Assembly: GCA_032718475.1 (NCBI GenBank)
Contig: JAUCBJ010001658.1
Span: forward strand, 1-36,751
Reading direction: 5' to 3'
Origin: Nemertoderma westbladi
Lineage: Eukaryota; Animalia; Xenacoelomorpha
DNA: 36,751 nt
Made by a program: the position numbers and the translations under genes
Notes under the pieces: generated by a model
What the model was told of the DNA's origin: nothing
Database searches by the model: none
Seen by the model: only the letters and a program-made list of their open reading frames with translations
In this document: piece by piece, positions 7,212 to 32,650 of the stretch
Layout: each line of letters starts with the position of its first letter
How positions within the stretch are numbered: position 1 is the first letter of the stretch

Positions 7212-7243
<32 letters not shown>

Positions 7244-7264
7244 CATGATATTTATATATATAGA
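4938..7264 (-). mobile_element. Non-autonomous Helitron, copy 3 (related but distinct family)
   Basis: Minus strand reads A|TCTATATATATAAATATC plus (TGTC)n at 7265/7264. Variant terminal hairpin and CTAG at 4976-4938. Diverged ~147-bp array and different unique segments. Confidence 0.8.
5085..6790. repeat. ~147-bp tandem repeat array inside Helitron 3
   Basis: Anchor TTTCAGACATTTCGCCCCCTAGCGG recurs near 5371, 5517, 5663, 5811, 5957, 6104, 6252, 6399, 6546 and 6693. Confidence 0.95.
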
Positions 7265-8172
7265 TAGGATCAGAGGATATATTTCGGGCAGAATTAAAAT
7301 CAGATTATGCAATATACATCTGTTGTTTTGGATGAGTCAGGATGACGTTAATGATTTAGCTACCAGTACTGATTTAAATAGTGAAAAAATTAATTTAGCG
7401 GCTGACAAGTTAACCACACTCATTTACAACTGTGCACAGAAAGTAACACCGGCACCAAAACACATTTCTAAGGATAATATACTGTACATAATGGTGCTAG
7501 GTGGTTTAATTATGATTGTGTTGTTTCTGAAAGTAAATTTAGCAATGCGCTTAGTGATTGGCGCCGAACCCGTTCCGATCTAGCACTACTTAATGTGCAG
7601 AATGCAAGGAAAATTTATAAAAAAAACTCTCAGACAGGCACGTGTGGTGTACGGAAAAGTAGAGTCGACTAAATTAATGAGGCTGGGTCTAAAATATGTT
7701 AAAATGTTTTGGAATAAACTTAAAAATTATTTTAATACCTCCAAGGGCAAGGCTATGTCAAGTACCGAGGAGTTAGAATGGAATTTTAAGGACTTGCCTT
7801 GTGGAAACTCGGATTTTGAAGATGGAGACTAGCCAATCACAAAGTTTTAATGTATCTGATAGTTTTGAGACATATATTAGTCAACGATTTGACGAGTCTG
7901 AAGTGGCTGCCGAGATTAAGAAATTAAAGTTGGGGAAACACCCGTTGAGGACATGATTTTGAGTGAATTTCTGGTTGCTGGTGTAAATAAACTAACATCT
8001 TCAAATACAGTACGGCTGTTTTTAATGCAGGTTTGTTAACAGGTAATTTCCCAATGAGATGTACCACTGGTCTTATTAAACCATTGTATAAGAACAAAGG
8101 CAGTCGCTTCGACCCGACAAACTTTCGTGGTATTACTTTGCTTAGTATTATTCATTTTAAACAATAGGTTAA
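7265..8172 (+). pseudogene. Decayed non-LTR retrotransposon ORF2 (RTE-X-like), pre-RT and RT N-terminal part
   Basis: Frameshifted fragments include IKKLKLGK and LIKPLYKNKGSRFDPTNFRGITLLS, then ILNNRL at the insertion site. Confidence 0.75.
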
Positions 8173-10790: not shown

Positions 10791-11753
10791 AGACTACATG
10801 GTGTACCAAGTTTGGTTCCATTTCATCCATGATTGACCGACTTATTAGCGTTCAAACATTCCTGCCACAAACATAGCCAGAGGCAGCCACAAACAAACAA
10901 AAGCTGCAGGAACTCGAGCGATCATTAATTAATTAATTATTAAATACTGTTTCAATTAAATTATTTACGAAAATCTAGTTATCTCCTTTTAAATATGGAC
11001 CCTGCATTCGTGGAAAATATAATATTTGATAATTCATCAGTCAGCCTACTCTAATTTTGCAGGCTAGGTCCTTTGTCATGGCCTGTTGTTTAGATGGAAA
11101 CAATGCAGCAATAATGTGCCTTGGCTGCTTTTCGAAGTGTGGTAGGCCTATTTCACTTTCTTCAGCCAATCCAGCATTTCCAGATTGCAGTGATAAGTCC
11201 AGTAGTATACCGCGTACCGAATCCTAGTAATGGATACCTAACTGTAGAATCCAGCAGCATATGGGTTTGTACAGTATATACCAAGAAATCCCAGTCCAGG
11301 GTATGTCCAAATGAACAGATATCGAAGTACACAAACGACTACTGGCGAGGAACGGAGCCTGATGTCCCTTCTAAACTTGGGCGAATCAATTGCCGGGCTA
11401 ACTGGACAATCAGGGTGACCGTCCTCTAACCGGTGAGGCAGATGTACAGTCTAAAGATACAGACCAAACTCAATATATCAAACATATATAATATCAAACA
11501 ATCCCCGCATAACGAATCCTAACAACCGCTAATGGACCTAAATACTGTAGACTTGCCGCGGTGTGATTTATATGGGTATAATATGAGCTAGCAGGTTGAC
11601 CGACACTAGCGTAACGCACAATACTGCCAACAGAAAAAGCAGTCAATTTTGCCTAAGGGTGGAACAATACCTCTACAAACAATCTAAAGGACGCGTGTGT
11701 ATGTGTGTGCTATTATAAAACAATTTTGGTGTACTGCTGTTGTACTAGATCTT

Positions 11754-12490
11754 GGATAGTTCTTTTTACAGAACACAGCAGAACACAGTAGAACACTGCA
11801 GAACACAATAGAATACAGGCGGAACATAGGCGAACACAGCTGTAATTAAAATCTACACCAAAAAATAACACACTTGGGAAAGTACCGGATTTAATCATAC
11901 AACTGTAAGATGTCAATTACATATTTAAATTAAATGGCGGTTTTCCATATCCTCCAAAATAAATTACTTCATTATCATTATCCTGTCATTCCCATCATTA
12001 TCCTGTAACCATGGAGAGTTGGTTAGTTCTACAGCAGTACAGTACCGGTAGCTGAGTAGGCCTACATCAGTACATTGGTAATATACTCTACACTGTGCCC
12101 GGTAATTGCCGGTAAATGCCTACATCTGTCTGCCTGTACAATGTACAGTCTGTCAGTCTGTACATGTCTCTACAGCACTAGACCTACTGCAGTACTGGAA
12201 CAGGCTGACAGGCAGACTGCTGGACTAGTAACAGGTACAGGCCTAACCGAACAGCTGATCGGGCAACTCTGATCAGGTAATTTATTTTGGAGGATATGGA
12301 AAACCGCCATTTAATTTAAATATGTAATTGACATCTTACAGTTGTATGATTAAATCCGGTACTTTCCCAAGTGTGTTATTTTTTGGTGTAGATTTTAATT
12401 ACAGCTGTGTTCGCCTATGTTCCGCCTGTATTCTATTGTGTTCTGCTGTGTTCTACTGTGTTCTGCTGTGTTCTGTAAAAAGATACATCC
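11754..12490. mobile_element. Mutator-like (MULE/foldback) MITE
   Basis: 214-bp near-perfect TIRs (11754-11967 and 12277-12490, GGAT to ATCC). 9-bp TSD CTAGATCTT at 11745-11753 and 12491-12499. Confidence 0.9.
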
Positions 12491-12969
12491 CTAGATCTTG
12501 GTGGATGATTTTAACAAAATAACAATACGGGGTGCTAGCTACTAGAATAAGCTAGTCGTATGCTGTATGTGCAATACTTAAATACTGACGTCAAAAGGGC
12601 TCTCTCCTCCTATATTCACAACTCGGATGGGCAATTATGGTGTTAGTAACTACACCCACGATCGGCACTAATACCAGATTCTGATTGTGAAATAGAGAAA
12701 TAGGGTGTTAATTTGCTACCGTACGTCTAGCTGATCTGGTATGTAATTTGTTTCTAGAAATTTTGTTACTGCGGTGGTGTGCAGCAAATACCTATCAGTA
12801 TGTGGCAAGGGCGTGGTAGATTATTAGTAAACCGCCCTTTAGCCAAAATGCGTGCCGGTAGCAGAAAGCTGCCCCCTTGCCTGAGCAAATACATTGGACT
12901 CAGACAGATCAGTCGAACTGCATATGTGACGGGATCGTAGATCCCGACCTGAGCTAGTCTAGACCTGAG

Positions 12970-14943
12970 TGCCGAAATGACCTTCATAAGGCGCAGAAAG
13001 AGTCCCGACTCAAACAGACTACAGCGGCCAAGAAAGCAGTTAAGGCTGCATCTAGGTCCCTGAACAGGCAGTACTCTGCTAATTTACAGGGGCTAATAAA
13101 CCAACAGGTTGATGCCATCAATGATGCTGACGACAGCAGGCAATCATCCCAGGCATGGAAATTGATCAATCTGCTTACTGGGCGGAAAAGCCAACCAACC
13201 ACCAAGGTTAAGGCTGAATCACCAGCCGATCGCCTCAATGGTTGGAAAGCCCACTTTGAAAAGCTCCTCAATAATGACAGGGTATTGCTTGATAACTTTA
13301 TAGAAGTAAAAGTGTCTGAGTCTGTACTCCCAGATATTCCCATTGGCGATATCTCCTTTGCAGAAGTGAAGGCTGCTGCAAAGAGCATTAAGACCAACCG
13401 TGCCAGTGGAGTAGATGGTGTTCCCCCTGAGGTCTTTAAAATACCTGAGTGTTTAAAGCTCATCTATCCCATCATAGTAGACATGTACCGAACAACAAGA
13501 GTCCCACAAGAAATGAAAACAAATAAGTTGGTGCCAGTTCCCAAGAAGGGCAACCTAACACTCTATGGTTCTTTTAGGGGAATCTTATTGATCTCGATTG
13601 CTGCAAAGCTATACAATAGGATTCTATTAAATCGCATCAGGGATCCCATTGAGAGACTGCTCCGTGGAAATCAGAATGGGTTCCGTAAAGGTCATGGGAC
13701 CATGGAGCCCATTTTGGCACTTAGAAGGATAATTGAAGAGTTATCAAAAGAGAAAGACAGGCATCTGGCTGTTATCTTTGTTGACTTCTTCAAGGCCTTT
13801 GATTCAGTCTCTCGCTCACGTATGTTCAGCATACTTTCATTATATGGGATTCCTGATGAAATTATTGCAGCAATCAGATCAGTATACGATGGTTCGACAA
13901 CATTTGTGTCTACTGTTGACAGTGACACAGAACCATTTGAAGTGTTATGGGGCGTCCTCCAAGGAGACACACTTGCACCATTCTTGTTCATTATTGTGGT
14001 TGACTATGTTCTACGCATGTCCTTAGATCATTATAATGATGATGGGGTGATGATAACTCCACCTACTGGCTCCAGAAGTCGAGGAAATCCTGCCAAGTAC
14101 CTAACTGATCTAGACTTTGCTGATGACTTAGGAGTACTCTCAGAATCATTAGAGGGAGCCCAACGGCTCCTCAGCTCATTATAACATGCTGCTTCTAGTG
14201 TTGGTCTTTTTATTAACTCCATAAAGACCAAAATTCTAACAGTTAACTTTGAAAGTCCTCAGCAAGTCTCTGATCGGATGAGCATAAGCTCAAAGGATGG
14301 TATGCTTGAGCATGTGGACGACTTCTGTTACCTGGGATCATGGACCCGGAAGTCTGGTGAGGACCTTCGAATACGTAAGGGAAAGGCATGGGCAGCCTTG
14401 AATAGGCTTTCCAGGATTTGGAAGTCACCGAGAATTAATCGGAAACTTAAGGTCGGATTATTTAGAGCAGCAGTAGTTCCAGTACTCCTCTACGGGAGTC
14501 CATGCTCCTACTGCTGAGGACAACAAATCTCTGGATGGCACATTCACAAGAATGCTACACCGGGTTCATTGTGTCAAGTACAATGCACACATCACCAACC
14601 AGACAGTATATAACATTGGAGGTGTCTCATTGGTTCCCCCAAGCTTGACACTAGAACAAAATCGCCTCCACTTTGCAGGACATTGCTTTCGCCATGAGGA
14701 CCAGCCAGTGCATAATCTTGTACTTTAGCAGCCTCATGGAGTGAATAAGCATGGTGGACAGCCCATGACTTTCTTGAGACGCATCTTAAAGGACACTGGC
14801 CTTAAAGATGCGGATGATCTAGCAAATGTCATGGGTGATAGGGAGTTGTGGCGGTGCAATTTTGTTGACAAGCCGGCACAGCATTCTTAAAAAATGCAGC
14901 TGCAATGCAGCATGCCGATCCTAGTAGTAGTAGTAGTAGTAGT
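12970..14943 (+). mobile_element. 5'-truncated RTE-clade LINE, copy 1
   Basis: RT ORF 13162-14184 (QNGFRKG, FVDFFKAFDSV, GVLQGDTLAPFLF, LDFADD) continues through stops (FCYLGS, VLLYGS, FAGHCFR) to ~14890. Short 3' UTR and (TAG)n tail. The 5' end is approximate and no TSD was found. Confidence 0.9.
13162..14184 (+). pseudogene. Reverse transcriptase of the RTE LINE (premature TAA at 14182, GAA in copy 2)
   Basis: Canonical non-LTR RT motifs in the 340-aa ORF. Confidence 0.9.
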
Positions 14944-15899
14944 CTCCTTTTGGCTGAAAGCCATTGGGGAAAAATAACAGAGTTTGTGTTTCTCGATGTT
15001 AATGTTCCAAATGATAATAGCACAGAATCAGTTACAGTTGGTAAATCAGTAATACAGAATAACAACAGCATTTATATAATTGAACAACAGCAGATATATA
15101 ATTGATGTTAGATGACGGTCAAAAACTATAACCGGTCTGCAACTCTGTGATTAATGTACTGACCGGTAAATCAGTAATACAGAATAACTATATGATTGAT
15201 ACACATAGATATTGGTTTCACCCCTACTCTACTTGGCCTTCTGTATCCAATGGATGCTTTCCTATCTCTGTCCACGTGCTCCCCTGCCTGCTATTGGCTT
15301 ATATACTAATTGTCACTTTGGCACTCCCTGTGAGTGTTTCCCCCTGCCGCTAGCCTTTACTAGCTGTGTTCTCCCTCCGAGGTGGTTTGACCTCTCACCT
15401 CTCTCTGTGGCTTTGGGGCCTGTATCCCCCCCCCCCCCCCGAGTTGGTTATGAGGCGAGATTATTATTGGTAATCTCGTATCGCCAACTATATTGGTAAA
15501 ATGCCACTGGTCCCATTTTAGGGTGGAGAATGAAGGGAATTGAATCCGCTTACAGCATAGCCTTCAGAGCTAAACGGTACTGTACCTCTATTATTGCTAA
15601 TCACCAAGAGCGTGCTTTTTGCACCTAGCGTACTTGCGCGTACTAACAAACAGCATCAGCTCGCACCTGTAAGAGGTACAGGTCGACCGAGGGGTTTCTA
15701 TCTGAATCTGAGGTATTTGTTCCTACACTTTACGGCGTCCCAGGACGTCGTCACACATTCCCCTGATCTAAGGGCTTACGGTGGGCAATGGCGTTGAACA
15801 AAGTCTTACTTCTTCTGACATGAGCGCTTTCAGGCAATCGAGTCATGTTTCAAATGGGCGTGGGTGAAATGGTGCGGGTTCCTTTATGTGATGTGTACA

Positions 15900-15910
15900 T
15901 CCCTCCCCCT
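15900..15910 (-). promoter_or_regulatory. Polypurine tract of the BEL/Pao element
   Basis: Minus strand AGGGGGAGGGA directly followed by TGT. Confidence 0.7.
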
Positions 15911-16328
15911 TGCGTTGCTGTGGCTTAAAGTTTTAGGCAGCCATTCTCCAAAGAGTTTGTCTGTTTGAGATAGATACGCTAAAACTACATGTTCTGAGTT
16001 TGCAATATATTTTAACGTAATTGACCAAAATGATTTATCGAATTAAACTAAATAAAGTAAATCAAGACTTAAACAGTAAGTTAAACAGTAAATAATAAGT
16101 TGTACAGAATAAGAAGAAGTAGTAGTGGGTGATAACCGAGGGCAAATGGTGCCTTATATAGGAAATCCTAAGCATAGAATCGCACTAGAACATTCTACCA
16201 CATTCCATGGGCTCACATTGGACCAATAAATTATCAAACACCTATGATTGGCCCAACTAATCAGTTCATGTGCATTGGCTTATCTAACTTAATGAAACAG
16301 AAAATAAATTGCACAAAATTTAAATTTT

Positions 16329-16400
16329 ACCAGACCCAGATTCGAACTCTCAACCTATCTTATGTGTAACCTGCGCGCTAACATACTGGGCCACTGGACC
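16329..16400 (-). other. Degenerate tRNA-like or SINE-head sequence with Pol III A and B boxes
   Basis: Minus strand GGTCCAGTGGCCCAGTATGTTAGCGCG (A-box-like) and GAGTTCGAATC (B-box-like) at tRNA spacing, with a T-run ~10 nt downstream. Stems pair poorly, so this is not a functional tRNA. Confidence 0.55.
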
Positions 16401-18808
16401 AGTAGCAACTTGTGCCGAAATATACTAAACATAGGTAATATACGAATTTATAACAAACTGTAAGGCAAGACAAATACGTCGGATTTTAAAAGTTTTTTAC
16501 GTATTACTAATTACAAATAGATATCTAACAGTGAAATATTACCACACCGCTCCATGAAAACAGTAAGTAAGTCTGTTTTCACCAATCGAAATATCAAAAA
16601 ACGAACTAAAAAATATATGTAATCTAGGGTAGGGCCTAAAATATAAAATAATCACTGCTTAGGTCTTATTGCATATAAGGTATTGCAAATAATACATAAA
16701 TATAAAACTTTCATACATACAAACAAATACGGATTTACTATTTAATAATATCAAGGCTTGGTGCATAAAATACAAAACTCCCATCGGTTATCCAATATAA
16801 AAAAATTAAGACAAATAATTTCAAACGTATATAATAATCCTTTAAATACATAATACATTCACCAAATTAAATCAGTCCAAATAAAAGAAAACAACAATAA
16901 TCTAAAATAATTTTGCTTAAATGTCCTCCTGACGACTATAGAGTTTGTCCTACTGGTCTAGTCGTCAGTCCTGAGCAGCAACGCTAAAAGTAGGCTTGCA
17001 AGCCTTCCTTTCTCCACAATCTCGCTCATTAATGCCAATGGTAGGCTCGCAAGCCTTTCTTCCTCCACAACCTCGCTCTTTATCGCTTCATCAATCGAGC
17101 TTGGCCTTGCCATTTAATACAACTAATTGGTGATTTCGGTCTAACTGGGCTCGGGCTCCTGCGTCGAGTTGTCTATGGTTCTGGAATCCTGGGAAAAGGA
17201 ACGACTGGCGTCTCGCATAATTATTGGGCGCTTAATCCAAGCAATCCCCGCCTGACTTCAGGTTTTCGTCTAATGGGTCAGATGGAGTCTCAACGATGCT
17301 CGGAGGGAGTTTGAGAAGCGGTACTAGGCTGTCAGCCGACACCTCGCTCTCGGAAGTCGTTTGAACCCTCATGGGTTCAGGCAAAGCATATCCTGTCGCT
17401 CCGCGCGGTTCTCTGGGAAGGGAAACAGTACCTCGGGTCATCCGGATCTGCGACTGAGAAGTCGTTTTGGCAATATTAATCGTCTTCTTGATCTCTTGGC
17501 CCATCTTTTGAGCTCGAAGTATGCGATATGGTGCGTCCTCTTGAGGATGGCGTATCTTGTCCAGCAATGGAGTCGCCTTAAATTTGGTTTCGCACAAGAC
17601 GTCTTGTCGAGTATGCATGAGGTCACGCGCCTGTGATAAAACGCACTCCGGTATGCCCAAGCTATGGAATGCCAGGCTCCCCTGTTTCGCTGCTTGATTC
17701 GCAATTTGTCGAACTCTCTGGCAGTTATTCGGTTCACCACTGTTTGAAAGTTCCAAGTATTCTTATTGTCTGGGTGAACTTGGAGAAAATAATCGCGTAC
17801 GACTCTGAATCCGCTATCCAACAGCAATATGTCGAGTACCTCCAACAACTCATCATACTGAGGCATCGCCGATACATATCCCTCCTTTGACATGATTTGA
17901 GGGTTAACGGCCCAAAATCCTAGGTGCGCCCTCATAAGGAAACGTCGTCGTTGCGTCGACACTAGCTCATCCGCTAAGTCTTCCCAATGGTCGAATAGCT
18001 GTCACATGATCTTTACTGACAAATGTTCGTATGGGACGTCTCGGAGTTGACATTCCGACGCCCTGTGTCCCTTGATGTTACAATAGGTGCACTGCGCTAC
18101 AAAGCACCAGCAAGTGTAGAATGTATGGGATCGCTGATCTCCGCACCAGTTGAACACTAACTCTGGTAGAGATATTTGCTTGGCCCCACATTTCTTTGCG
18201 TGATGTCCTGTTGCTCCACATCTGCCACATATGGTGTTAGCAGGATACCAAATTCATTCATAGATGAGATCACCAATAAGGTGAGCGCCACTGTCCACGT
18301 GATAGTCCTCATCATTGGGATGAGTCAGTACGTCCGTCTCCGTGGGTTGTTCACAAACCATAGCGTCGCTGTTCTCTAGTTCACGGATCTCAGTTCATAT
18401 CTTCCTCAGAAGATTCTCCTCTATTTCAATAACTCGCCACAACAGCTCATCGATTATCGTGGACTCGGTCGGATCTTCATCGGGATGATGAACGGTAGGT
18501 GCATGTGCATTCCATGATCCTTCCAGGTCCTTAATCTCCGCCTGGCGTTCCCCGTCATAGGGTACTAACGTTAACATCAACGGTCTGTCGACGAGACTTC
18601 CCGCGTGGGTGAGATAAACTTGGTGAAAATGCAGAATCCCGCGCACGTGAAAGCATCACAGTGGGCATTGGTGTTGTAGAATGGTTGAAGGTATCGACGA
18701 AATACTTCCATATTCGTCCTCCCTTCCTCGTAAAATATATCTCCCTCTCCTAAACATAGCGGGTGTTGCTCTATAATCCTGGACACTATTTCGGCAATGA
18801 AACATACA

Positions 18809-20001
18809 TTAACTGATGACTCTATAGCCAAATTGTAGAATTATCCACGGAGGTGATGTAATCGCCCATTGTATGCACCCTCTCCATTTCAACTGCGATT
18901 CGAACTCATTGATGTTAGGGGTATCACCTTCTCCATATACGTCCATATATTTGCTCCTCTTACTCTCCTTGTAATACGAACTAAACATTAGATATGAGAT
19001 ATAGCCAGTTCCAGTTTTGAGAGTATTATACTCCCTGAAATATCCTTGCTCTATAGCCCTGAGCAACAATGGTCTGGTATCCACGTATGGTGTAGGCAAT
19101 CTGTCTTCCTCCTCAGGCATCCCGGCAAAATCGCTGATAAGATCGTCCCGTATGCTGGATCCGATCTTCAGGATGCTCTTATCTAATATGTCATCGCGCA
19201 CTGCCTTGGGTAACATCCTAGCCTCTATATTACAAGCTAGGTCCATGGACTTTACCGTCCGCTTAATCATGGCGTGTCGTCGAGTCGTCTCCTCCGGCAT
19301 CTGCATCTTGCGATTGCTCTGCTTTCAGCTGAAGATGTGTAGCACTCCATCTGGTGCTCGAATTTGGATAGTTTTGGCAGAAAACGCCAACACCCAGGTT
19401 TAATCTCGGATAGATTAGCCCAGGTTGAATAGGGTTAACTGATGACTCTATAGCCAAATTGTAGAATTATCCGCGGAGGTGATGTAATCGCCCATTGTAT
19501 GCACCCTCTCCATTTCAACTGCGATTCGAACTCATTGATGTTAGGGGTATCACCTTCTCCATATACGTCCATATATTTGCTCCTCTTACTCTCCTTGTAA
19601 TACCAACTAAACATTAGATATGAGATATATCCAGTTCCAGTTTTGAGAGTATTATACTCCCTGAAATATCCTTGCTCTATAGCCCTGAGCAACAATGGTC
19701 TGGTGTCCACATATGGTGTAGGCAATCTGTCTTCCTCCTCAGGCATCCCGGCAAAATCGCTGATAAGATCGTCCCGTATGCTGGATCCGATCTTCACGAT
19801 GCTCTTATCTAGTATGACATCGCACACTGCCTTGGGTAACATCCTAGCCTCTATATTACAAGCTAGGTCCATGGACTTTACCGTCTGCTTAATCATGGCG
19901 TGTCATCGAGTCGTCTCCTCCGGCATCTGCATCTTGCGATTGCCCTGCTTTCGGCTGAAGATGTGTAGCACTCCATCTAGTGCTCGAATTTGGATAGTTT
20001 T
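18809..20001. repeat. 567-bp direct duplication (18809-19375 and 19435-20001) separated by 59 bp
   Basis: Offset of 626 bp. Both copies start at TTAA and end at GGATAGTTTT. Confidence 0.95.
19376..19434. mobile_element. Orphan piggyBac-like terminus
   Basis: Ends CCCAGGTTGAATAGGG|TTAA with an internal repeat CCCAGGTTTAAT 27 bp inside, the same layout as the MITE end at 9766 and similar to that at 28086. Confidence 0.75.
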
Positions 20002-22850
20002 CGAAGTGAGGCTCTGCTGATGGCTCCCTGCTTCGTTGTTGTAGAACATATATCCATTCTCTCGCAGAGATTGACTCGTCGTGTCCCAATCATCGAGTAG
20101 ATCATCCGTGGGGTTCCAAATCCCTCCAATGGCTTTCGTTAAAACTGATGGGTTTCCCCATCCAGTTGGTTGCAATGTCGGTATCGGTCTCAAATGTGCC
20201 AATTCTGATCCATAAACGGATCGTCCGCGTCCGTGTCAGATATCCTCGCAGGATGCAAGGTGCGATATCCATCCCTGTGCAATCAACCTTGAAATCGGTA
20301 AAATGTGGAGGCACGTTGCGAAGGATTTTCTGAACTATTATTCTACGCAACTCCGCAGCCTCTAACACATCACCAAATGTAACCGATGGGAGGAAATCCA
20401 GGTTTGATATAATCTCCGAATATGAATACACGAATCATAATGCTGATAGGGAAATGGGCTGTCCTCATGTACACTCATGTCTGCTCACTTGTCCGGAGGT
20501 TCAACAAGTATACCGTCGACAGAAGCAGCTTCAATCGGCGGAAGTTGTAACATAGGAGCGTCACCGATAAGATCTCGAGATCTTAAGTTGATATCAACCG
20601 GTTGGGTTGTGCTGTTGCGAAGAGTTTATCTCTGAACTGAGCAACCATCGAAGGATGAATGATGGTTTGGGAGTAGAGATCAGTCATAAGTATCTGAGCT
20701 TCAGGTTGGGCTAAAGCGGCTTCTTCTCTCTCGTCCATTTCGATATGTTTCTCCTCTAGCTGATTCTTCTCTGCTTGTCTTTGAAACCATTCGCCTAAGA
20801 ACTCTTGTAACGAATATGTACATCCAAGTTAAATATCCCTCCAGATTCTCGATTTCTCGATCGAATTGAGGTAAAGCTAATTCTTTTACCGCTTGTACTT
20901 GTTGATGTAATCTACATTTGTCTAAACAATCATAGGTTCCCTTTCCAATCTTTTGCCGAATTGCGTCCAGTGCATTCCATATGACACTTTCCTCCACCTC
21001 GGTGATAGGTTGTATCGGAGTCAATCTGGGACAATTATACGGGTTGAACGGAGATATTAGATGTCCGCATCCCAATCCGGCTAGGTAGGAAGGGTGAATA
21101 TCCAAGGAGCTCAAAACCGGAGTGCCACCGACCAATTGTTTGGGTAACACCAGATCTTTGAACAACCAGTACAACTCAGGAGGATCTGTCATACTGTTAG
21201 GGTCGAGAGTCTGCGGTCGCACTGGAGAATAAGGAGGTCTGACCGAGTATTCTGGAACTCTGATCATAGGTTTACTTAAGGATCGTTTGAGTCGAGCGAG
21301 CGTGGGTGGCACGTCGAACAGGTTTCGCTTAAAACTCCCGTAAGCATAGCAAATGAAACTATGTTTAGCGCAACGTATACAGCTCCACGGGTGTTTATAG
21401 CGTTCCATTTGTTGATTGGGTCTAGGGCATTCATCGCAGTAATATCAAAGAAGCACGTAATGTAAAGGAAACGCTGGTGACTTTTCTCCCGTTTTACAAT
21501 ATTCCTCCATCTGTTTGAAGCTATCCGGTACAGGTAGGGGTCGATTAGCGGTAAGATACATCATAGTAAAATACAATCGTTTAAGTTCCATCATAGGATT
21601 AGGATGTATACCTTGCGGATATCGAGTTTCTAGATTTTGTTGACTAGTTACATTGAGATAAGTTACTCTCAGGAACTCTAAATATTCATAAAAGTTAGTA
21701 CACTTCTCTGGTTCTTCAACATCTTCTCTTTCGAGTCGGTTTTGAATAGAATTTTCATGTTCGATTCTCAGTTTGTTGTTCCAACTCCGCTGGGCGTGAT
21801 ATTTAAATAAAATCATCTCCCTTTCGGTATCCACATCGTCCGTATCGTGTAAATCGATAGGATGACCGGTAGTCAAGAAGTCCATATATGTACCATTGCG
21901 ATGCGTATAGCATGCGGTGAATTTTCTATAGTCCAATTCACGTTTGAGCTGCTCCTCAGACATCGGTGGTTCGATATAACATCCATCATCTTCCGTCGTA
22001 TGTTGACTAGCGTCGCCACTTATCAAACTATCAACAAATGCTTGTAGAGGTAGAGTATATCGCTCCCTGATACCAAGATCATCTTCTATCAACTCAGTCA
22101 TAATATATGTATGAGTTTATGGATATTATAAATCAAGGCTAGCGGGCGTCGCTGCCTCTTTTATCCCCAAACTGCCCCCGGACAGCACTGAGATCCTCTG
22201 CGCTGATGTACTGCTGTCGCTGTGCCTCTTGCCAACGTAGTAGCCACACAACAACAACAATAATCAGCGCGAGTCACTCTACTGTCCGTCCCAAGGGCTC
22301 GAATATACTGGAGGTAATTATTGCAGATGTAGGATAACTTTCACAATTGCAGCTCGCTACTGTAAACACACTTTAGCAGTAACATTCACCTATAAATACA
22401 CAAATTCCACTTTCATGTCACAATTATTTTGTACAAATTAGAGCCATTTGTCCATTAGTCAAATGCCTATTTTTCTTTTAACTTACTTCTAATTCTAGTG
22501 TGGTTGTTACTATCATGACATTATGCAAAGCTAGCATAGCAGTAGAATTAGGGTATTTCTCATGCATGCAGATCTGGGATGCTATTTAATAGCGACTCTT
22601 GGGTTATTAATATTCCCTTTATATATGATATTTATTAATTTTGTCGGCTATTGGCTGCACACTGGGAGTTTCTCTCACACTGCTATACTTAATAAGGTGA
22701 ATCTCCTCTCCCATGATCTATTAATTGACTATAATTTTGGGAATATTGATAAATTGTGTAAAAATGACAATTTATTTAATTCATGAGAGGATATGAATTT
22801 AAAATTTATTCCCATGAATTTTATTATTTAATATTAGAATTGACACAGTT

Positions 22851-23175
22851 TTATTCCAGAACATGTCTGGGGACGCTAACCACTGATTCTATTAATTTTG
22901 TCTTTTAAGTATATCGGTGGGTGCTGCGATATCTTAATCGACTAAATTTTTAGAGGGTTGAAGGGTTTAACAGATTTTTATTTTAACATTTTGTTATAAC
23001 AAATGTTGTTAATATTTAACAGATAGTTAGTATTAGGATGGGCACCGATTTATTCCAGAACATGTCTTGGGACGTTAACCACTGATTCTATAAATTTTGT
23101 CTTTTAAGTATATCGGTGGGTGCCGCGATATCTTAATCGACTTGAATTTCAGATGGTCAAAGAGTTCAACAGATT
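22851..23175. repeat. Imperfect direct repeat of ~120 bp (offset 199) in the integrase/extra-ORF spacer
   Basis: TTATTCCAGAACATGTCT through GATATCTTAATCGACT at 22851 and 23050. Confidence 0.85.
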
Positions 23176-23729
23176 TATTGGTCAAAGAATTTAACAGATA
23201 CAGAGTAAAACTGTTAAACGGACATCTTTCTACTATATATATTATTTCGAAATACAGTATGAGAGCAATATTGCAAGAAGCAATGTCAGTGAGAAGAGGC
23301 AAGTCGTTTCCAAGGTCTACCCAGAGCTTGGTTTAGCCGAGACATGAGGATCTGAACTTTGCATTCCTAATACTCTACTTTACCAATAATACCTTAAGTA
23401 TAGTAGGAGCAGTATATATTGTACTTTAATAATAAGTACCGGTATTTCATCTTACTGTAGTCATGTATTTATAATAGAATACGGACAGTAAGGAAGGAGA
23501 AAATGAAATTATTTCCCACCGTTAACTAAATATATATTATACGCTAAGTAATAAAATACGAAATATATTGCACTCTTCTACTGAATAATCGTCTAGTAAT
23601 TATTCTACTAAATAAAATTAAATAAAACGATCATAATAACATAAATTACATATTAACGCATAAAACAAATAAAATAATGTTGTCAAACACCCACTCCAAT
23701 CGATGTTACATTATGGAGTCCCTAGATGT

Positions 23730-25269
23730 TTATTGGATTAGGGAGGTGGTCATAGGAAGAGTCCCTTGTTTACCGTAGTTACCAGATAACTCTTGGTCTC
23801 GTTCCAATAAACATAGGCGACCAACCGGGCGGTTAAGTTGCTGAGTTTCAAAGACAATTCCAGGTTTTTTTGTAGTTACGTCACATGACTACGAGTTTCA
23901 CTGATCTCACTAAACCATCATCGGATATGTGGGTCTCGATGATACGACCTGCCTGCCACCTCTTACGGGGAAGATCTGATTCCACTATGAGGACCATGTC
24001 TCCGGCGCTGACATTTTCTTGCTGCGCAAACCACTTTGTTCGAAGTTGCAGCGTAGGAAGGTAATATTTTTCGAAATGGTCAGCGAAACGATGGGATAAT
24101 AACTGCATAAGTTGCCAAGATTGTCGGCAGTATTTGTCTCAGTCCGTTATTTCCGACTGAGGAAAGCATGGCTACAGGTTTCTTCAGTAGGGAATGTGCG
24201 GGTGTTAGTGCTTCTAGGGAGTCTGGACTCGATGAGACTGGCATAAGCAGTCTCTTGTTGAGCTAGGCTGCTATTTCCTCCATTACGTGAGCAAAAGTTC
24301 ATCGGTGAGATACGCGCGGCACGGCACTACGAAGTGAAATGCGGTCTTCACGCTACGTATGAGTCACTCCCAACTTCCTCCCCACCAAGGGGCGTTGGCG
24401 GCATTGAAGGTCCAGCTGGATGCTGTCACTCTCAGCTGATCGTCCACCTGTCTTTGGTTCCAGTCATTTACATAAGCTTTGATCTCGTTGTTAGCTCCAA
24501 TGAAATTGGTACCTTTGTCAGATCGCATAGTATTGCTAGTCCCAAAACGAGTGATTTGACGGTGTAAACTCAGTATGAAACTGTTTGTAGATAGATCATT
24601 TACCATATCAACTTGGATCGCTCTACAAGTCATACAAACAAAGATGATGCACAATCGCTTGACTATAGTCCTAGCGCCCATTGGTAGAGGGTGGTTCTGC
24701 CTCTCGCTGTGTTAAAGGCCTACTAAATGCTTTCCTACATGGTATACAGTTCCTAAGAATTTGGTTTAGCGCTTTATGTGGCTTATGGAAATAATAGCGA
24801 GTTCGAATTTCGCTAAGAACTCGTTCTCTAGATGTTCACAGTAAGCTTTACTATGCTTACTGTGAACATCTACAATCATCTTGATTTGTATTTCAAGATT
24901 TCTAATTAGTATGGGGCACTTGGACACTTGGGAGTAAAGGACAATGGAGCATTGGTTAATCTCCCCCCGACACGTATTAGCCCATCTATGATTGTACTAG
25001 AAAAAGAATCCCTTAAGCGCATCATAACATTGCAGGAATCTCAATATTTGCTTGTTGGTATTGTCATGTTCTTGGTAACTGATTTTATCAGTTAGAAACT
25101 TAGTGGGTAGCTGATAAGTGGGAAGGTCTTTGACAGTGTGGACCTTTTCGGCTACTTGAGGGGTGGCGTCATTAGCGAGCTTTGTGCTGGAATAATGATG
25201 ATGGAAACATCGCTTTAAATATACAATGGCTTTGCAAAGCCTATTCCCGGTACTATAATGAGCCCTCAC
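23730..25269 (-). pseudogene. BEL/Pao integrase region (core and DUF5641-type C-terminus), disrupted
   Basis: IFVCMTCRAIQVDMVNDLSTNSF, SDKGTNFIGA, APWWGGSWE, YLPTLQLRTKW, GDMVLI, DGLVRSV and RPVGRLCLLE. Stop near 23730. Confidence 0.9.
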
Positions 25270-25561
25270 TCTCTGGATGATGGGAGAGAGTCCCTTTGAG
25301 ACATCTGGTGTTCCAGACTTCCAATCTCTTTCTCTTATTTCATCAATCGCTTTATTCGGGGCTCCATATCTATGGATTTTGGTTGGTTAGGATCCACAGT
25401 GGCGTCACCGGCGGTATGTAGCACAGACAAATCAATTGCTGGCTTGAACAGTTTGGATTTACTAGTCCGGGTTTAAGGTTTGACCTTTTCCGCTCCCTTG
25501 GCTTGTCTGATCTCAGCCGTGGTAAGATGGGGGGGGGGGGGGCATTCCTCCTCTTCTTTAC

Positions 25562-26500
25562 TTAGGAAGTCGGGCCACCTAACCAATCAGGAGTATCTGT
25601 CAGTTCTTGAGGAGTTGCTCCTCTGGAGGCAATGTCGGTGGGATTAATCGTCCCAGGGCAATGTCTACATTGATCTATATTAGTGCAACTGAGTATAATA
25701 GCTACTCGGTTAGTAATGAAGACGCTGAACTGACAGGCTTCATTAGTGATATATTCCAGAACGAGTAATGCGTCGGTCCAATAAACGGTTTTCTCTAACG
25801 GATATTCGATCTGTTCCATTACATTCTGGCCGATGGCTGTAGCGTATAGTGCCACTTTTAACTCCGCTCCAGGGACTCATAGTTTGTTATTTATTAGGGC
25901 CTTTGAGGTGGCTAATGAAACTTTAATTCCATCGGGAGTTTCAACCCTCAGGTAGGCTACTATGCCTATTCCGACGTCGTTGGCATCTCCAAACACATGG
26001 AGTTGATAGGAATAAGGGGGGAGAGCGTGACCGAAATACGAGCGGAAAATCTTAAAGTTCTCGATAGCTGGTAAAGAATTCTCCCACTTCATCCACTTCT
26101 TTAGCAGTTTTCCCTGGAGTGGATCATCCCAAGAGTGGTTTTCAAGCCACATTTGTTGCACCAGACTCCGAACAACCATGATTACAAGACTAATAAATCC
26201 CAATGGATCGAAATAAGTGCTCAGAATACTCAGGCAAATCAGTTTAGTTCGAACATGATTTTCACATTGTTTCAATTGAAAAAATAGAATGTCTCTCTCC
26301 GTATCCCATATCAGTCCAAGGGTTTTGGTTTCTGGGAGATCATCCTTAATGAGGTCAACATCTTTAACACCTCGGTCTTCCACTGGGATCGACTCCAGGA
26401 ACTCACGGGAGTTACTAGTGAATTTGGTTAGGCAAAATCCACCTCGTTCTAGGCACTCTTGGCAACCTCAATTGCTTCTTCCAAGACTGAGGGGAGGGAC
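25562..26500 (-). pseudogene. BEL/Pao RT C-terminus and RNase H (Pao 'peptidase A17' region), disrupted
   Basis: GGFCLTKFTSN, KTLGLIWD, FDPLGF, WDDPL, LHVFGDA, VAYLR, YWTD, FITNRV and NPTDIASRG. Confidence 0.92.
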
Positions 26501-26504
26501 TTAA

Positions 26505-28086
26505 CCCTATTAAACCCGGGGGGTGGGGTCAATATGACCCCCCCCCGTGGTTTTTTTATTATAATTCTGAAACAAACGCAGTTGGGAATCTGAAATTTTA
26601 TGACTTTTCCTAAAAATCTATTGTCTTCCTAGTTGTGAAAACCGTTTTCAAAAATATTGGGTACTTTTCGAGTTATAGCACCATTTTTTAACCCTACTTT
26701 TGGCACTTTTTTTGAGACGTTTTTTGAAAATTACATTTCATTAAATATGAATTGTAACATCTCTATTTTTGATTTACACCGGTTTTTTGGTGTTAGAAAT
26801 TTGATTAAATTCATATAAATGATTTAGAAATTTCAAACTTGTTTTTTTCGGTGGGTGCAAAATTTTGGTGCCAGCACCAAATTTTGAAATAAGTCAATTT
26901 TGTAAATTGATCGTTTGAAACTTGTTTTTTACGCAATTGGGGTTTTTTGGGTTTCTGGATTCGATGAAATATATACGAGTTGCACCAAGCGTATCAAACT
27001 TGTAATTTTCGGAGCTGTGTGCAAATTTTGGTGCTAGCACGAAATTTTGAAAATCCATTCAATAGATAGAATTGCTTGTGACAATATATTTCTTGCGTTT
27101 TAGAGGTTTATGGCTGTTCTGAATTCAATGGAAAATATAATTATCGAACTAGACATCTTAAACTTATATTTTTCGGATGTGGGTGCAAAATGTGGTGCTA
27201 GCACCAAATTTTGAAAAGCATCAAATATATCAATTGATTGTGTCACCTTGTTTCTTGCGTTATACGGGTTTGTGATGGTTCTGATTTCAATGGAATCAGT
27301 AAAAATTTCCTAAGAGTTCTCAAACTTGTATTTTTCGCCGGTGGGTGAAAATTGTTGTGCCAGCACCAAATTTTGGAAAATATGCAAATTGATAAGTAGA
27401 TAGTATCACCTTGTTTCTTGCGTTATACGGGTTTATGAGGGTCCTGAATCCGATGGAATCAATAAAAACAGCACTGGACAACGCAAACTTGTACTTTTTG
27501 GTGATGGGTACGAAATTTGGTGCTAGCACCAAAATTTGCCAATTTACGGCGAAAAATACAAGTAGCAATGATCTGGCATATTAGAAATGTATTCCATTAG
27601 AATCAGCGCCCTCGAAAACCTGAAAATGTGAATTTATAGCATGAATAAGTGAATTAAAAATTTTGTGTTCTAACTGAAAAGTGCTGGTTACTTGTTTTTT
27701 TTCATTTTTTTCCTACGCAGAGAGGACTAAACAGCCATTTATAGTAATCATATCATTTTTTAATATTTTCCAATGTATTTTGCACCCCAGAAAACCTGTA
27801 TTGAAAAATAATTAGCCGAAAATGTAACTTTCAAATTTGGTGAAAATTGTGCACTACTTGTAATTTTGGTGCTGCAATATAACCACATTTTTTCGAAATT
27901 TTGTTTTTTCGGTCGGATCCAGACATGTGATACCTAAGTACAAACAAAAAATCAGACGTTTTCGTAAATATTTGTAGAATTTAGAGGGGGGGGGGGTTAA
28001 GTAATTTTAGTTAGTAAATTGTAGTTAAGTCCCTCCCCCCCCCCCCCGGTATTTGTACAACATTTTATAGCCCGTTACTAATAGGG
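26505..28086. mobile_element. Non-autonomous piggyBac-like element (MITE 2) with internal ~162-bp repeats
   Basis: TTAA|CCCTATTA at 26501-26512 and TAATAGGG|TTAA at 28079-28090. TTTGGTGC(C/T)AGCACCAAA units near 26865, 27028, 27190, 27353 and 27516. Confidence 0.88.
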
Positions 28087-28090
28087 TTAA

Positions 28091-28985
28091 GGGGGGGGGG
28101 GGGGGGGTATGCCCCCCTCAGGTAAAATTTTCAAATTGTTGTTTCTTTATTTCATCTAGTGCAGAATTTAATGAGGACAATCTGAATCAAATCTGAAAAC
28201 CGCTTAGTGAGACCTCTTTCAGTTCTCGAGTTATCACTGTTTTTCCGTATGATGGTCTGTCCGTCAAATTGTAAGAAAGACAGAAGACCGACAGACAGAC
28301 AGACTAGATTCCACCAAAAATTAAAACTGACATCGGAAATGAAATCAGCGACCCCGAAAACCCCCGTAATTAACATTTTAGCTCGTTGGTGTGCATCCTT
28401 CATGCCGGAAATAATTAACCAACCAGAACGCAGACAGCCAATTTTGGCGGGACGGTTTAAGCTTTGAAGGGCATTTTCTCAGAATGACATTTTTCATTTT
28501 CAAATTACTACTCCTCCGTCATTTTTTAACCAATTTTCTTCGTTTATGGCTCATTCGAACGAGCTTTGGAAGCTCTTTAAAAGTTATCTTATGGAATTTT
28601 GATAAATATTACAATTTTTTCTAATTAGCCAATTTTAATTAAAATATGATAATTAATTAATTAATTAAATTAATTAAAATAAAAATGGCTAATTAAAAAT
28701 TATATAAGATAACTTTTGTAGAGTCGATCACGCTGAGTCCAAAAAAGTTGGTTTCAAGAAATTTGGAATAAATTGAGGGAATAGTAGCAATTTTAGTGAA
28801 ATCTTTAATTCCGCCGCCAGCCGCTAGGGGGAGGCTATAAATTTTCAAATTTTACTATAAAGGCTATTTGGCCTTCCATACAGTGGTTGACCATAACAAA
28901 ATAGCAATATTATCATTTAACACTAATTGACAGCCATTTTAAAAAAAGGTTCATGGGGTCGTAAACCCCCCCCCCCCCCCCCCCC
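28091..28985. mobile_element. Kolobok-like non-autonomous DNA transposon
   Basis: TTAA on both sides (28087-28090 and 28986-28989), G-run and C-run termini consistent with the RR..YY rule. No ORF. Superfamily is inferred from termini only. Confidence 0.6.
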
Positions 28986-28989
28986 TTAA

Positions 28990-29760
28990 GATTGTCATCC
29001 ATGTAAATATCTCGTTTGCTGTTGTCGATGACCGCTTTAGGGAAGGCGTCTCTATTATCATCGGCAGTGGTGCGCAGTACCAAACAAGCGTTCGCAGGGC
29101 TAGATATGATTCCGAAAGCCTGGATGGTCATCCAGTACTCCTCTCTGTTGAGGTTTCCTTCAGGCCACCACAGAAATCGTAGGCTATCCCTATCTCGCTG
29201 TAACGCTTTAACTTGCATAAACATGCCTTCAATGTCTGAGGCGAAGGCGATAGAATATTGCCGGAGTCTTAGTAATATTCCCAATAACGATTGGAGTAAG
29301 TTGGGTCCTGGCAACAACTCGGAATTAAGGGATTGTCCCTTATAAAGGGTGGAGCCGTCAAATACCACCCGGACTTTGTCTGGTTTACCAGGTTTAGGAA
29401 CGTAATGATGTGTCAAGTAATACATTCTTTCCATTATGGGTGTTTCCTCCGGCACTCGCTCCGTGTATCCTTTGTCGATGAATTTCCATAGTTGCGTCTT
29501 ATACATCTCTTTGGCTCGATCGTTAGATGATAAGCGCCGATGCAATTGTGCGATTCTCTTTTCTGCTAAGGGTCGGTTATTAACGAAGCTGGGTTCTCTT
29601 CGCCTAAAAGACAGACCAATCTCGTAACGACCCTCCTCCTTTATATAGCATGTAATTGTCACCTGGATTTTTTTAGCTCTCTCTTCCTCGACTGATAACG
29701 CTTCTTCGTAGGAATTAGGCTCTACAGCTTCTTGAGTAAAAAAACGCACTGCGTGTTCAT
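28990..29760 (-). pseudogene. BEL/Pao reverse transcriptase, N-terminal part up to YMDD
   Basis: YYLTHHYVPKPGKPDKVRVVFDGS, SLNSELLPGPNL, SDIEGMFMQV, LRFLW, FGIISSP and IYMDD. The polyG tail of ORF 28913-29749 comes from the inserted MITE. Confidence 0.95.
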
Positions 29761-29779
29761 CACGTATCTTATCATTATA

Positions 29780-30286
29780 TCACTCTACCACCTCATTGAG
29801 TTCGTCGTTGTAAGTTGATTTGGCAAAGCATTTGGAAAACTCTATAATCCCATTGCTAGGAAACTTCCTGGGCGCTACTAATTTTGCATACAGATATCTA
29901 GCTATGTTAGTCATATTACCATACCTGATGTTAAGTGTATCCCAGACTTGTCTTAATCCATCAGGATGTCCAATAATCTTTAACGCCATTAACTTGGGAG
30001 GACCTTCCAAACACTCGATGAGGAATCGTAGTTTTTCTCCGATAGATAGTAACAGATAGTAACCACTTCATCTCATCTCCATTAAACTTGACAACCTCTC
30101 CCACCTTTACAGCTTGACGAGCTTCCGTCCTAGTCATCTAGGGTCTGACACAACTACTGTAGGGATGGCCTTTCTTACAGTAGGTGGGGACTTGGACCTT
30201 GGTCGGGTCCTTTCTACACTTTGATCTGGGTAACAGATTGTCAGTTCCAAGAGGCTATCTGACAGTATCTGTTTTGGGTCAAACAT
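29780..30286 (-). pseudogene. BEL/Pao gag remnant (DUF1759-type), with the Gag C-terminus and protease deleted
   Basis: KFNGDEMKW and EKLRFLIECLEG...VWDTLNIRYG motifs. Candidate ATG at 30286. It abuts the pre-RT region with no zinc knuckles or protease motif in between. Confidence 0.7.
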
Positions 30287-30811: not shown

Positions 30812-31813
30812 CTACTGGGGCGTCCTCCAAGGATACACACTTGCACCATTCTTGTTCATTATTGTGGTTGACTATGTTCTACGCATGACCTTAGATCATC
30901 ATAATGATGATGGGGTGATAATAACTCCACCTACTGGCTCCAGAAGTCGAGGAAATCCTGCCAAGTACCTAACTGATCTAGACTTTGCTGATGACTTAGG
31001 AGTACTCTCAGAATCATTAGAGTGAGCCCAACGGCTCATCAGCTCATTAGAACATGCTGCTTCTAGTGTTGGTATTTTTATTAACTCCAGAAAGACCAAA
31101 ATTTTGACAGTTAACTTTGAAAGTCCTCAGGAAGTCTCTGATCGGATGAGCATAAGCTCAAATGATGGTATGCTTGAGCATGTGGACGACTTCTGTTACC
31201 TGGGATCATGGATCCGGAAGTCAGGTGAGGACCTTCGAATACGTAAGGGAAAGGCATGGGCAGCCTTGAATAGGCTTTCCAGGATATGGTAGTCACCGAT
31301 AATTAATCGGAAACTTAAGGTCCGATTATTTAGAGCAGCAGTAGTTCCAGTACTCCTCTACGGGAGTCCATGCTGGGCTCTAACTGCTGAGGACACCAAA
31401 TCTCTGGATGGCACATTCATAAGAATGCTACGCCGGGTTCATTGTGTCAAGTACAATGCACACATCTCCAACCAGACACTATATAACATTGGAGGTGTCT
31501 CATTGGTTCCCCCAAGCTTGACACTAGAACAAAATCGCCTCCGCTTTGCAGGACATTGCTTTCGCCGTGAGGACCAGCCAGTGCATAATCTTGTACTTTG
31601 GCAGCCTCATGGAGTGAATAAGCATGGTGGACAGCCCATGACTTTCTTGAGACGCATCTTAAATGACACTGGCCTTGAAGATGCGGATGATCTAGCAAAT
31701 GTCATGGGTGATAGGGAGTTGTGGCGGTGCAATTTTGTTGACAAGCCGGCACAGCATTCTTAAAAATGCAGCTGCAATGCAGCATGCCGATCCTAGTAGT
31801 AGTAGTAGTAGTA
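30812..31813 (+). mobile_element. 5'-truncated RTE-clade LINE, copy 2
   Basis: Near-identical to 13948-14943. (TAG)n tail. TSD GATAATAAGC at 30802-30811 and 31814-31823. Confidence 0.92.
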
Positions 31814-32650
31814 GATAATAAGCAATAGGTTCAACTGATATTAAGACCTAATTGATGTATAACAGGCTAACTAATTTATAAATCTGATTGAGTTAAATTT
31901 ATAAATATATATGTACCCGTAATGGGTTTTTTCAATTATTGAAATAGATGTTATTATTTCTGAGTACGAAGTCACTACACAGAGGTTTGACGCTCTCAGT
32001 GGAGTGCTACTTGTTAGACACTAAATACTGATAGTTCTACTTAACTAAGTTACTTATCACTACTGATTACTTACGTATAACAGGTTGGGATTACACAATC
32101 TCTAAATAAATAATAAACAAAGTTACACGTACTATTTTTAGGGTAATTTTACAAGAATTTTACAAACCAGACTAACAAGAATTTAGAATTTCTAGATCTT
32201 ACAGGCTGATAGGGAATTTACGGAATTGTGAGACCAATAAAGTAGTATTCAATACGTTGTGATGTCCAGATAAGGAAATGTCACCGTATGATGGCTCATA
32301 GTCTACACTATAAACAAATGTACCCGGAGTGTCCTATACCTAGAGATTAATTATCGAAGCCTACGCTAATGGACCTATTAACCACGTTACAACACAAATA
32401 TACTGCGTATACACTAAATTAACTTTCAGGAAAGTGCAGTACTTTAAACCCTAGATTAGATACTAGCACTTATACAACATATAACTTGCAGTTAAATATA
32501 TGTGAACAGCTAAAAGAACCACAGCATCTGCTGGAGTGACCAGAGTATTTAGGCTTACTCATCCAATGCTAAAGAAATCACCAGTCTGTCCTACGCCAAG
32601 CAGTCCTGAAGTAGTACCGGGGTTAATTTAACTATTACGGTATGCATAAC

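What the first reader, a model, noticed from the sequence alone, without database searches (positions are those of the whole stretch)
17232..22101. BEL/Pao retrotransposon carrying a giant non-envelope accessory ORF downstream of integrase
Seen: between the integrase stop (~23730) and PPT/LTR (15910/15899) lie ~4.9 kb of coding-like sequence on the same strand as pol. Ten ORF fragments join through in-frame TGA codons or single frameshifts into one frame of ~1400 codons after removing a 626-bp duplication. It is hydrophilic, has no visible signal peptide or transmembrane segment, and contains Cys clusters and CCHC knuckles. Known: extra genes at this position in BEL/Pao elements (Cer7/Cer13, Tas, roo, Atlas) are mostly viral-type fusion glycoproteins. 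Inference: this is a different cargo class, a large nucleic-acid-binding accessory protein (anti-silencing factor, RNA chaperone or second Gag-like protein), and I do not recognise its family. This copy is dead.
Basis: partly seen in the sequence, partly recalled or inferred. Interest (0 to 1): 0.85.

Follow-up and report, generated by a model that had tools for sequence, protein, structure and literature searches.

The report
BEL/Pao retrotransposon carrying exonuclease-knuckle gene
A broken jumping gene in an animal genome has, where a viral coat gene would normally sit, a long extra coding region under purifying selection whose second half is predicted to be an RNA-trimming (DEDDy) exonuclease joined to zinc knuckles; it likely helped the element blunt the host's small-RNA defence, and this kind of cargo was found in print here only for rotifer elements of other families.

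Summary
Between the BEL/Pao integrase end (23730) and a PPT/LTR start (15911/15899) lies ~1,415 codons of decayed minus-strand coding sequence, with a 626-bp duplication, no membrane segment and two full CCHC knuckles. It is not wholly unrecognisable. The 3' half matches two unnamed environmental proteins collinearly over two domains, and those proteins are DEDDy/DNA_pol_A_exo1 3'-5' exonucleases with a zinc-knuckle cluster, the layout of Trypanosoma RNase D. Sister copies in the same species show purifying selection there (22 of 40 listed differences synonymous, 12 expected) and carry the motif-I acidic residue this copy lacks. The 5' ~470 codons have no detected relative. Weak points: four of the frame changes cluster at the junction between the halves; contig depth drops 20-50-fold there; no 5' LTR is in the window; motif III was not located; my own folds were poor. 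So 'one giant protein' and 'carried by this element' are likely, not shown. DEDDy third genes are known from bdelloid Ty3/gypsy elements and Terminons; a BEL/Pao case with knuckles was not found in ten literature searches. New variant of a known kind.

The parts
29780..30067 (-). gag remnant (DUF1759-like), running almost directly into the pre-RT region; gag C-terminus and protease appear deleted
   Evidence: Pfam DUF1759 E 0.043, below cut-off; sequence
28913..29779 (-). BEL/Pao reverse transcriptase, first part (YMDD motif)
   Evidence: tblastn hits in 15 of 40 motif-selected metagenome loci, best E 8e-25
26505..28912 (.). non-coding nested insertion with 163-bp tandem repeats interrupting RT (ends approximate)
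25877..26467 (-). Peptidase_A17 (BEL/Pao RNase H region)
   Evidence: Pfam E 2.4e-25
24364..24711 (-). integrase core fragment
   Evidence: tblastn hits in 39 of 40 loci, which were picked by this motif; best E 4e-23
23730..24138 (-). DUF5641 (BEL/Pao integrase C-terminus) and end of pol
   Evidence: Pfam E 4.5e-20; stop at 23730-23732
22117..23729 (-). non-coding AT-rich spacer with a 153-bp duplication
   Evidence: path cost at chance, 233 of 300 shuffles reach it
20831..22101 (-). cargo 5' module, ~420-470 codons from ATG 22101, with a CxxC-x15-CxxC cluster; no relative found
   Evidence: cost 1.0 vs 16.4, 0 of 300 shuffles; 23 contigs of run X1 diverge just upstream of the ATG; no significant hit
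20130..20830 (-). junction with about four frame changes; contig depth steps down here
19480..20129 (-). predicted DEDDy 3'-5' exonuclease domain, motifs I and II (copy 1)
   Evidence: a profile built from P0005 and P0006 alone hits 19510-19860 at iE 1.7e-9; alignment A3; selection test
18809..19375 (-). tandem duplicate of the exonuclease second half; it likely arose after the copy died
   Evidence: 97.5% identical; 4 of 14 differences synonymous
18230..18808 (-). end of the exonuclease domain (frame unresolved) and acidic linker
17830..18229 (-). zinc-knuckle cluster (two full CCHC, one partial) and the helical segment after it, shared with P0005 and P0006
   Evidence: Pfam zf-CCHC E 2.1e-5; profile iE 6.7e-12
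17232..17829 (-). C-terminal tail, ~200 codons, absent from the two relatives
   Evidence: 4 of 300 shuffles reach its cost
15900..15911 (-). polypurine tract
15581..15899 (-). 3' LTR; its TG start at 15899 is seen, its far end is not fixed (15581 is one candidate)
   Evidence: no second copy in the window

Best explanation
This is the decayed extra (third) gene of a BEL/Pao retrotransposon, whose 3' half is predicted to encode a DEDDy 3'-5' exonuclease followed by zinc knuckles and which likely worked as an RNA-trimming factor against the host's small-RNA silencing. Shown: BEL/Pao pol, spacer, long same-strand coding region, PPT and LTR start in that order; selection on the exonuclease region among sister copies; collinear homology to two exonuclease-knuckle proteins. 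Inferred: (1) fold and family, about 0.85; (2) both halves belong to this element, about 0.7; (3) expression from a spliced or subgenomic RNA, by analogy with rotifer ORF3s; (4) the knuckles grip single-stranded RNA and feed its 3' end to a two-metal site, as in Trypanosoma RNase D; (5) the substrates are host guide RNAs or their precursors, about 0.4 given the rest. The orphan 5' module with its Cys cluster would serve as a targeting or scaffold part.
For: phmmer of the 628-residue X read-through against 1.84 billion representatives gave 2 hits, P0005 (E 1.9e-5) and P0006 (E 3.3e-5). Both match the middle domain and the knuckle cluster in the same order. P0006 has Pfam DNA_pol_A_exo1 at E 6.2e-5 (23.3 bits, cut-off 23.6). 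For P0005 residues 30-275 the Atlas gives 25 of 30 feature hits in a set led by PF01612 (score 0.94; the family is on 34% of that cluster's members) and TM 0.56-0.60 by query to PF01612 models in 7 of 7 structure rows. A profile from the two relatives alone finds the window domains at iE 1.7e-9, 3.5e-8 and 6.7e-12. A prediction came true: where the alignment calls for the motif-I acidic residue, 16 contigs of run X3, 99.7% of the depth there, carry it although this copy does not. The motif-I Glu and motif-II Asp are invariant in A3. Selection: 22 of 40 listed differences are synonymous, against 12.0 +/- 2.8 expected (1 of 5,000 simulations reaches it); the other two minus frames give 9 and 8. 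Contigs 15-19% diverged cross the region with 0-1 gaps over 340-730 bases. The best PDB sequence hit of the profile is the knuckle part of 7c42 (E 0.0095), an accession cited in the trypanosome RNase D paper, where knuckles boost RNA binding and cleavage (PMC7797062 section 13).
Against: The window domain itself has no Pfam exonuclease hit and only a 0.88 Atlas lead to DNA_pol_B clusters. My two AlphaFold models were poor (pLDDT 45 and 35). Fold searches gave nothing significant: best Foldseek E 0.29, best Z 3.2, both EXD2. Motif III could not be located, and P0006 lacks two of the acidic residues. The selection test used the 40 best-supported of 98 differences in one run and one 331-base stretch. 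No contig bridges pol and cargo or the two halves, and no 5' LTR is present. None of 40 metagenome BEL/Pao-motif loci carries this cargo, though most end within 1-2 kb of the motif. Nothing here tests the substrate.
Confidence: 0.5

Rival explanations
1. Two genes or a mosaic, not one giant protein: an abundant BEL/Pao family carries only the 5' orphan ORF, and this copy's exonuclease-knuckle half, PPT and LTR come from a rarer subfamily or another LTR family by template switching or recombination.
For: Summed contig depth is 78,000-490,000 over 20908-24111 and 96,000-192,000 over pol 24112-26247, but 1,700-7,700 over 15568-20373 in run X1; X2 and X3 show the same step. About four frame changes lie in 20130-20830. 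The two relatives (535 and 558 residues) cover only the 3' half.
Against: The tool warns that summed depth is no copy number. The junction still shows some stop depletion (6 of 300). The exonuclease frame has no ATG shortly upstream of motif I.
Confidence: 0.3
2. The exonuclease works on the element's own nucleic acids, trimming RNA 3' ends or reverse-transcription intermediates inside the particle, with the knuckles as nucleocapsid-like chaperones.
For: This role was proposed for rotifer DEDDy ORF3s (PMC5408684). CCHC knuckles are nucleocapsid motifs (weak PDB hits).
Against: Most BEL/Pao elements are described with gag, pol and at most env (PMC8742986), so the core cycle needs no such enzyme.
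Confidence: 0.2
3. A catalytically dead RNA-binding scaffold, like EXD1 or Maelstrom (named in PMC5408684), that binds or shields the element's RNA.
For: Motif III is not located; P0006 has lost two acidic residues.
Against: Sister copies keep motif I, and P0005 keeps all three motifs.
Confidence: 0.2
4. An independent mobile element nested in the 3' region of the BEL/Pao copy.
For: Nested insertions are common here: 2.4 kb in RT and a LINE piece upstream of gag.
Against: No terminal direct or inverted repeats bound the region; it encodes no RT or transposase; same strand as pol; depth runs on from integrase through the spacer into the 5' module.
Confidence: 0.1

Closest known systems
DEDDy exonuclease ORF3 of bdelloid rotifer Juno and Vesta LTR retrotransposons and Terminons (PMC5408684; parts 2-3 of 5 and passages read)
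   Same: Non-envelope gene after pol in an LTR element; DEDDy-type exonuclease; no membrane segment
   Different: Those are Metaviridae-type elements or Penelope-like Terminons; this is BEL/Pao. That paper mentions knuckles only in gag and pol. Its motif is changed to DEED. Here a knuckle cluster, a ~470-codon orphan 5' module and a ~200-codon tail are added. Sequences were not compared directly.
Trypanosoma brucei RNase D, TbRND (PMC7797062; abstract and section 13 read; PDB 7c42)
   Same: DEDD exonuclease followed by a CCHC knuckle domain; weak profile match over the knuckles (E 0.0095)
   Different: A cellular enzyme acting on U-rich guide RNAs, with four knuckles; no significant match over the exonuclease; the likeness may be convergent
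env-like third genes of Belpaoviridae (roo F-type; mosquito gB-like, PMC13524379 passages; ICTV profile PMC8742986, whole text)
   Same: Position between pol and the 3' LTR
   Different: Glycoproteins; this region has no hydrophobic segment. The element spans at least 14 kb with insertions, against 4.2-10 kb in the profile.
EXD2/WRN/RNase D family (Pfam PF01612 DNA_pol_A_exo1)
   Same: Predicted fold and motifs I and II; EXD2 is the top but non-significant hit (among exonucleases)
   Different: Highly diverged; the family assignment comes through relatives P0005 and P0006

Membership tests
Belpaoviridae (BEL/Pao) | Pol order RT - RNase H - integrase with BEL/Pao-specific domains | tested here: met
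   RT, Peptidase_A17 (E 2e-25), integrase core and DUF5641 (E 5e-20) in that order
Belpaoviridae (BEL/Pao) | PPT directly before the 3' LTR | tested here: met
   15900-15911, then TGT
Belpaoviridae (BEL/Pao) | Paired LTRs, primer-binding site, target-site duplication | tested here: inconclusive
   No second LTR in the window; primer-site motif at chance level; no genome held
env-like third gene | Signal peptide and transmembrane anchor | tested here: not met
   Highest 19-residue hydropathy 1.40; acidic N-terminus (simple scan only)
DEDDy 3'-5' exonuclease (PF01612) | Homology to the family | tested here: met
   Through P0005 and P0006; no direct Pfam hit
DEDDy 3'-5' exonuclease (PF01612) | Motif I (D-x-E) and motif II (D) | tested here: met
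   Glu and motif-II Asp invariant in A3; the first acidic residue is present in sister copies, absent in this copy
DEDDy 3'-5' exonuclease (PF01612) | Motif III (Y-x3-D) | tested here: inconclusive
   Frame unresolved at 18560-18900; best local match, 2 of 300 shuffles, lacks the motif
DEDDy 3'-5' exonuclease (PF01612) | RNase H-like fold from a confident model | tested here: inconclusive
   pLDDT 35; best Z 3.2, rmsd 5.9, 70 aligned, EXD2
DEDDy 3'-5' exonuclease (PF01612) | Metal-dependent 3'-5' activity | not testable with these tools
   Needs an assay
Bdelloid retroelement DEDDy ORF3 pool | Groups with Juno/Vesta/Athena ORF3 in a tree | not tested
   Those sequences were not returned by any search
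Gag | Capsid domain and BEL/Pao gag-type knuckles | tested here: not met
   No gag Pfam hit in the cargo; the knuckle profile scores the window's gag-like ORF at iE 6 against 7e-12 for the cargo

The most novel reading that the evidence does not exclude
A BEL/Pao lineage uses, in place of env, a ~1,400-residue multidomain counter-defence protein: an orphan zinc-binding targeting module fused to an active DEDDy exoribonuclease with an RNA-gripping knuckle cluster that destroys host piRNA guides. It would belong to an undescribed family of mobile exonuclease-knuckle genes that P0005 and P0006 also represent.
Probability: 0.2. Interest if true: 0.8.

Novelty: new variant of a known kind. Interest (0 to 1): 0.52.

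Why it matters
It extends nuclease cargo from rotifer Ty3/gypsy elements and Terminons to a third retroelement family, which supports the idea of a shared pool of accessory nucleases. It also gives a testable candidate for an element-encoded attack on small-RNA silencing: an uninterrupted natural relative (P0005) with all three motifs exists and can be assayed. The 5' module is a selected-looking orphan domain.

Tried and rejected
Word-index protein searches found no new relative: 5' module against proteins of 817-2330 residues, 0 of 2,616 candidates (shorter proteins were not searched); 3' part, 0 of 2,560; profile A2 returned only P0006 among 7,995. The 5' module was not searched in the ESM Atlas or the 1.84-billion set and was not folded, so its orphan status is weakly tested. 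PHROGs: 0 of 10 proteins. PDB sequence searches: none for P0004; weak SPP1 (E 0.044) and SusD (E 0.65) hits for the 5' ORFs, rejected. Locus searches in viral and metagenome contigs confirmed nothing. No RNA holder was listed, which says nothing on expression. The Atlas DNA_pol_B lead (0.88) was not taken as a polymerase. No genome is held, so copies could not be examined at full length. The host species was not determined.
Full report
Setting. The window is repeat-rich eukaryotic DNA. On the minus strand lies a decayed BEL/Pao element: a weak DUF1759 piece (29780-30067), RT (28913-29779) cut by a 2.4-kb insertion, Peptidase_A17 (E 2.4e-25), integrase and DUF5641 (E 4.5e-20), ending at 23730. 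A 1.6-kb non-coding spacer follows, then the region in question, 1.3 kb of mostly non-coding sequence, a 12-purine tract at 15900-15911 and TGT at 15899. No second LTR is in the window and no genome is held.

The observation. A path of stops and frame changes through 17232-22101 costs 18.5 on the minus strand, against 56.1 +/- 4.3 in 100 shuffles; the plus strand is at chance. By part, 0 of 300 shuffles reach the cost of the 5' module, of either exonuclease copy, or of the knuckle-plus-tail part; 6 of 300 reach that of the junction 20130-20830 and 233 of 300 that of the spacer. The 626-bp duplication is real (97.5% over 567 bases), and only 4 of its 14 differences are synonymous, so it likely arose after the copy died. 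Removing it leaves 1,415 codons. There is no hydrophobic segment (highest 19-residue mean 1.40) and there are two full CCHC knuckles with a partial one between. The copy is broken by about five in-frame TGA stops and about seven frame changes.

What it is. phmmer of frame 17441-19324 (X at stops) against 1.84 billion representatives returned 2 proteins, P0005 and P0006, both unnamed singletons from ENA. Each matches the middle domain and the knuckle cluster in the same order. P0006 hits Pfam DNA_pol_A_exo1 (E 6.2e-5, just under the cut-off). The Atlas places P0005 residues 30-275 with PF01612 exonucleases by features (0.94) and by its own model (TM 0.56-0.60 by query, 7 of 7 rows; the two searches count as one source). 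A profile of those two proteins alone finds the window's domains at iE 1.7e-9, 3.5e-8 and 6.7e-12. Alignment A3 keeps the motif-I Glu and the motif-II Asp. It also predicts where the first motif-I acidic residue should be: this copy lacks it, and sister copies have it (16 contigs, 99.7% of depth in run X3). Motif III could not be placed, because the frame is unclear at 18560-18900. My AlphaFold models were poor. Searches with the second gave only weak rows: the top 10 Foldseek rows are all EXD2 (E 0.29-0.74), and 7 of 11 VIA rows (Z 2.0-3.2) are by title exonuclease or DNA polymerase chains. I count these as consistent, not as proof. The 5' ~470 codons and the 200-codon tail have no detected relative, on limited searches.

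Selection and linkage. Three runs of one species hold over half of the region's words (two studies, one may be the source sample). Contigs 15-19% diverged cross the exonuclease and knuckle parts with 0-1 gaps. Of the 40 best-supported of 98 differences over 19750-20080 in run X3, 22 are at third positions and 22 are synonymous, against 12.0 +/- 2.8 expected; rough omega 0.35. In run X1, 23 contigs diverge just upstream of ATG 22101, which supports that start. Summed depth stays high from pol through the spacer into the 5' module and drops 20-50-fold between about 20400 and 20900; the exonuclease, knuckles and LTR are all low. The tool warns that this is no copy number. It coincides with four frame changes and with the start of the part shared with P0005 and P0006, so a two-gene or mosaic structure is a serious rival. 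No listed contig bridges pol and cargo. No terminal repeats bound the cargo. None of 40 motif-selected metagenome loci carries it, but most are too short to tell.

How it likely works. The layout, DEDD exonuclease then CCHC knuckles, is that of trypanosome RNase D, where the knuckles raise RNA binding and cleavage and overexpression depletes guide RNAs (PMC7797062, abstract and section 13). I infer a separately expressed protein that binds single-stranded RNA through the knuckles and trims 3' ends, most plausibly those of host small-RNA guides. The substrate is untested; processing of the element's own RNA and a dead scaffold are the rivals.

Known systems. DEDDy third ORFs are described for bdelloid Juno and Vesta LTR elements and Terminons (PMC5408684, parts 2-3 of 5 and passages; PMC6431247 and PMC6338049, passages). 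The ICTV profile lists only gag, pol and env-like genes and 4.2-10 kb for Belpaoviridae (PMC8742986, whole text). 'Exonuclease' does not occur in the main texts of PMC3118150, PMC2774666, PMC8220671 or PMC6681497 (passages). PMC13524379 (passages) names only glycoprotein cargo for BEL/Pao in the passages shown. Ten searches listed no BEL/Pao exonuclease cargo by title or abstract start; most listed papers were not opened. Subscription papers, Repbase entries and the supplements of these papers were not seen and may hold such cases. Unchecked scan notes report exonuclease cargo in LTR elements of other genomes, which suggests a recurrent theme and lowers the surprise.

Verdict. Real, selected, non-envelope cargo; its 3' half is a likely DEDDy exonuclease-knuckle module and its 5' half an orphan. 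New variant of a known kind; interest 0.52.

Noticed in passing
window 35203-36423 (-) and 33040-35200: A 406-codon ORF with a gag-like Cys/His cluster lies upstream of the DUF1759 piece, out of gag order, followed by 1.6 kb of CT-rich tandem repeats; likely a second, gag-only nested element. No Pfam hit.
   Followed up: no
window 13948-14942 and 30816-31814 (+): Two 96%-identical LINE 3' copies ending in (TAG)n; the left one has RVT_1 (E 5.7e-21). They flank the BEL/Pao copy 16.9 kb apart in direct orientation.
   Followed up: no
window 16960-17231 (-): Some stop depletion continues past the cargo's end (5 of 300 shuffles for 15911-17231), with a 51-codon ORF built on a 51-bp tandem repeat; the cargo may run further or have a small companion ORF.
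   Followed up: partly
window 24754-29877: A contig in three runs joins the integrase region to gag, skipping 5,122 bases (only 20 letters on the short side): possibly an internally deleted family member.
   Followed up: no
window 279-6762: 146/147-bp satellite arrays in three blocks, with a ~2-kb higher-order duplication.
   Followed up: no
window 11747-12498: A 220-bp, 97% inverted repeat around 300 bases, MITE-like.
   Followed up: no
P0005, P0006: Uninterrupted exonuclease-knuckle proteins on ENA contigs of 7.5 and 18.6 kb; P0005 keeps all three motifs, P0006 has lost two acidic residues. Their context could not be fetched.
   Followed up: partly
L026:1-759 and L012:1343-3037: A 253-codon same-strand ORF and a 565-codon opposite-strand ORF downstream of the integrase motif in two metagenome loci; neither matches this cargo.
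   Followed up: no
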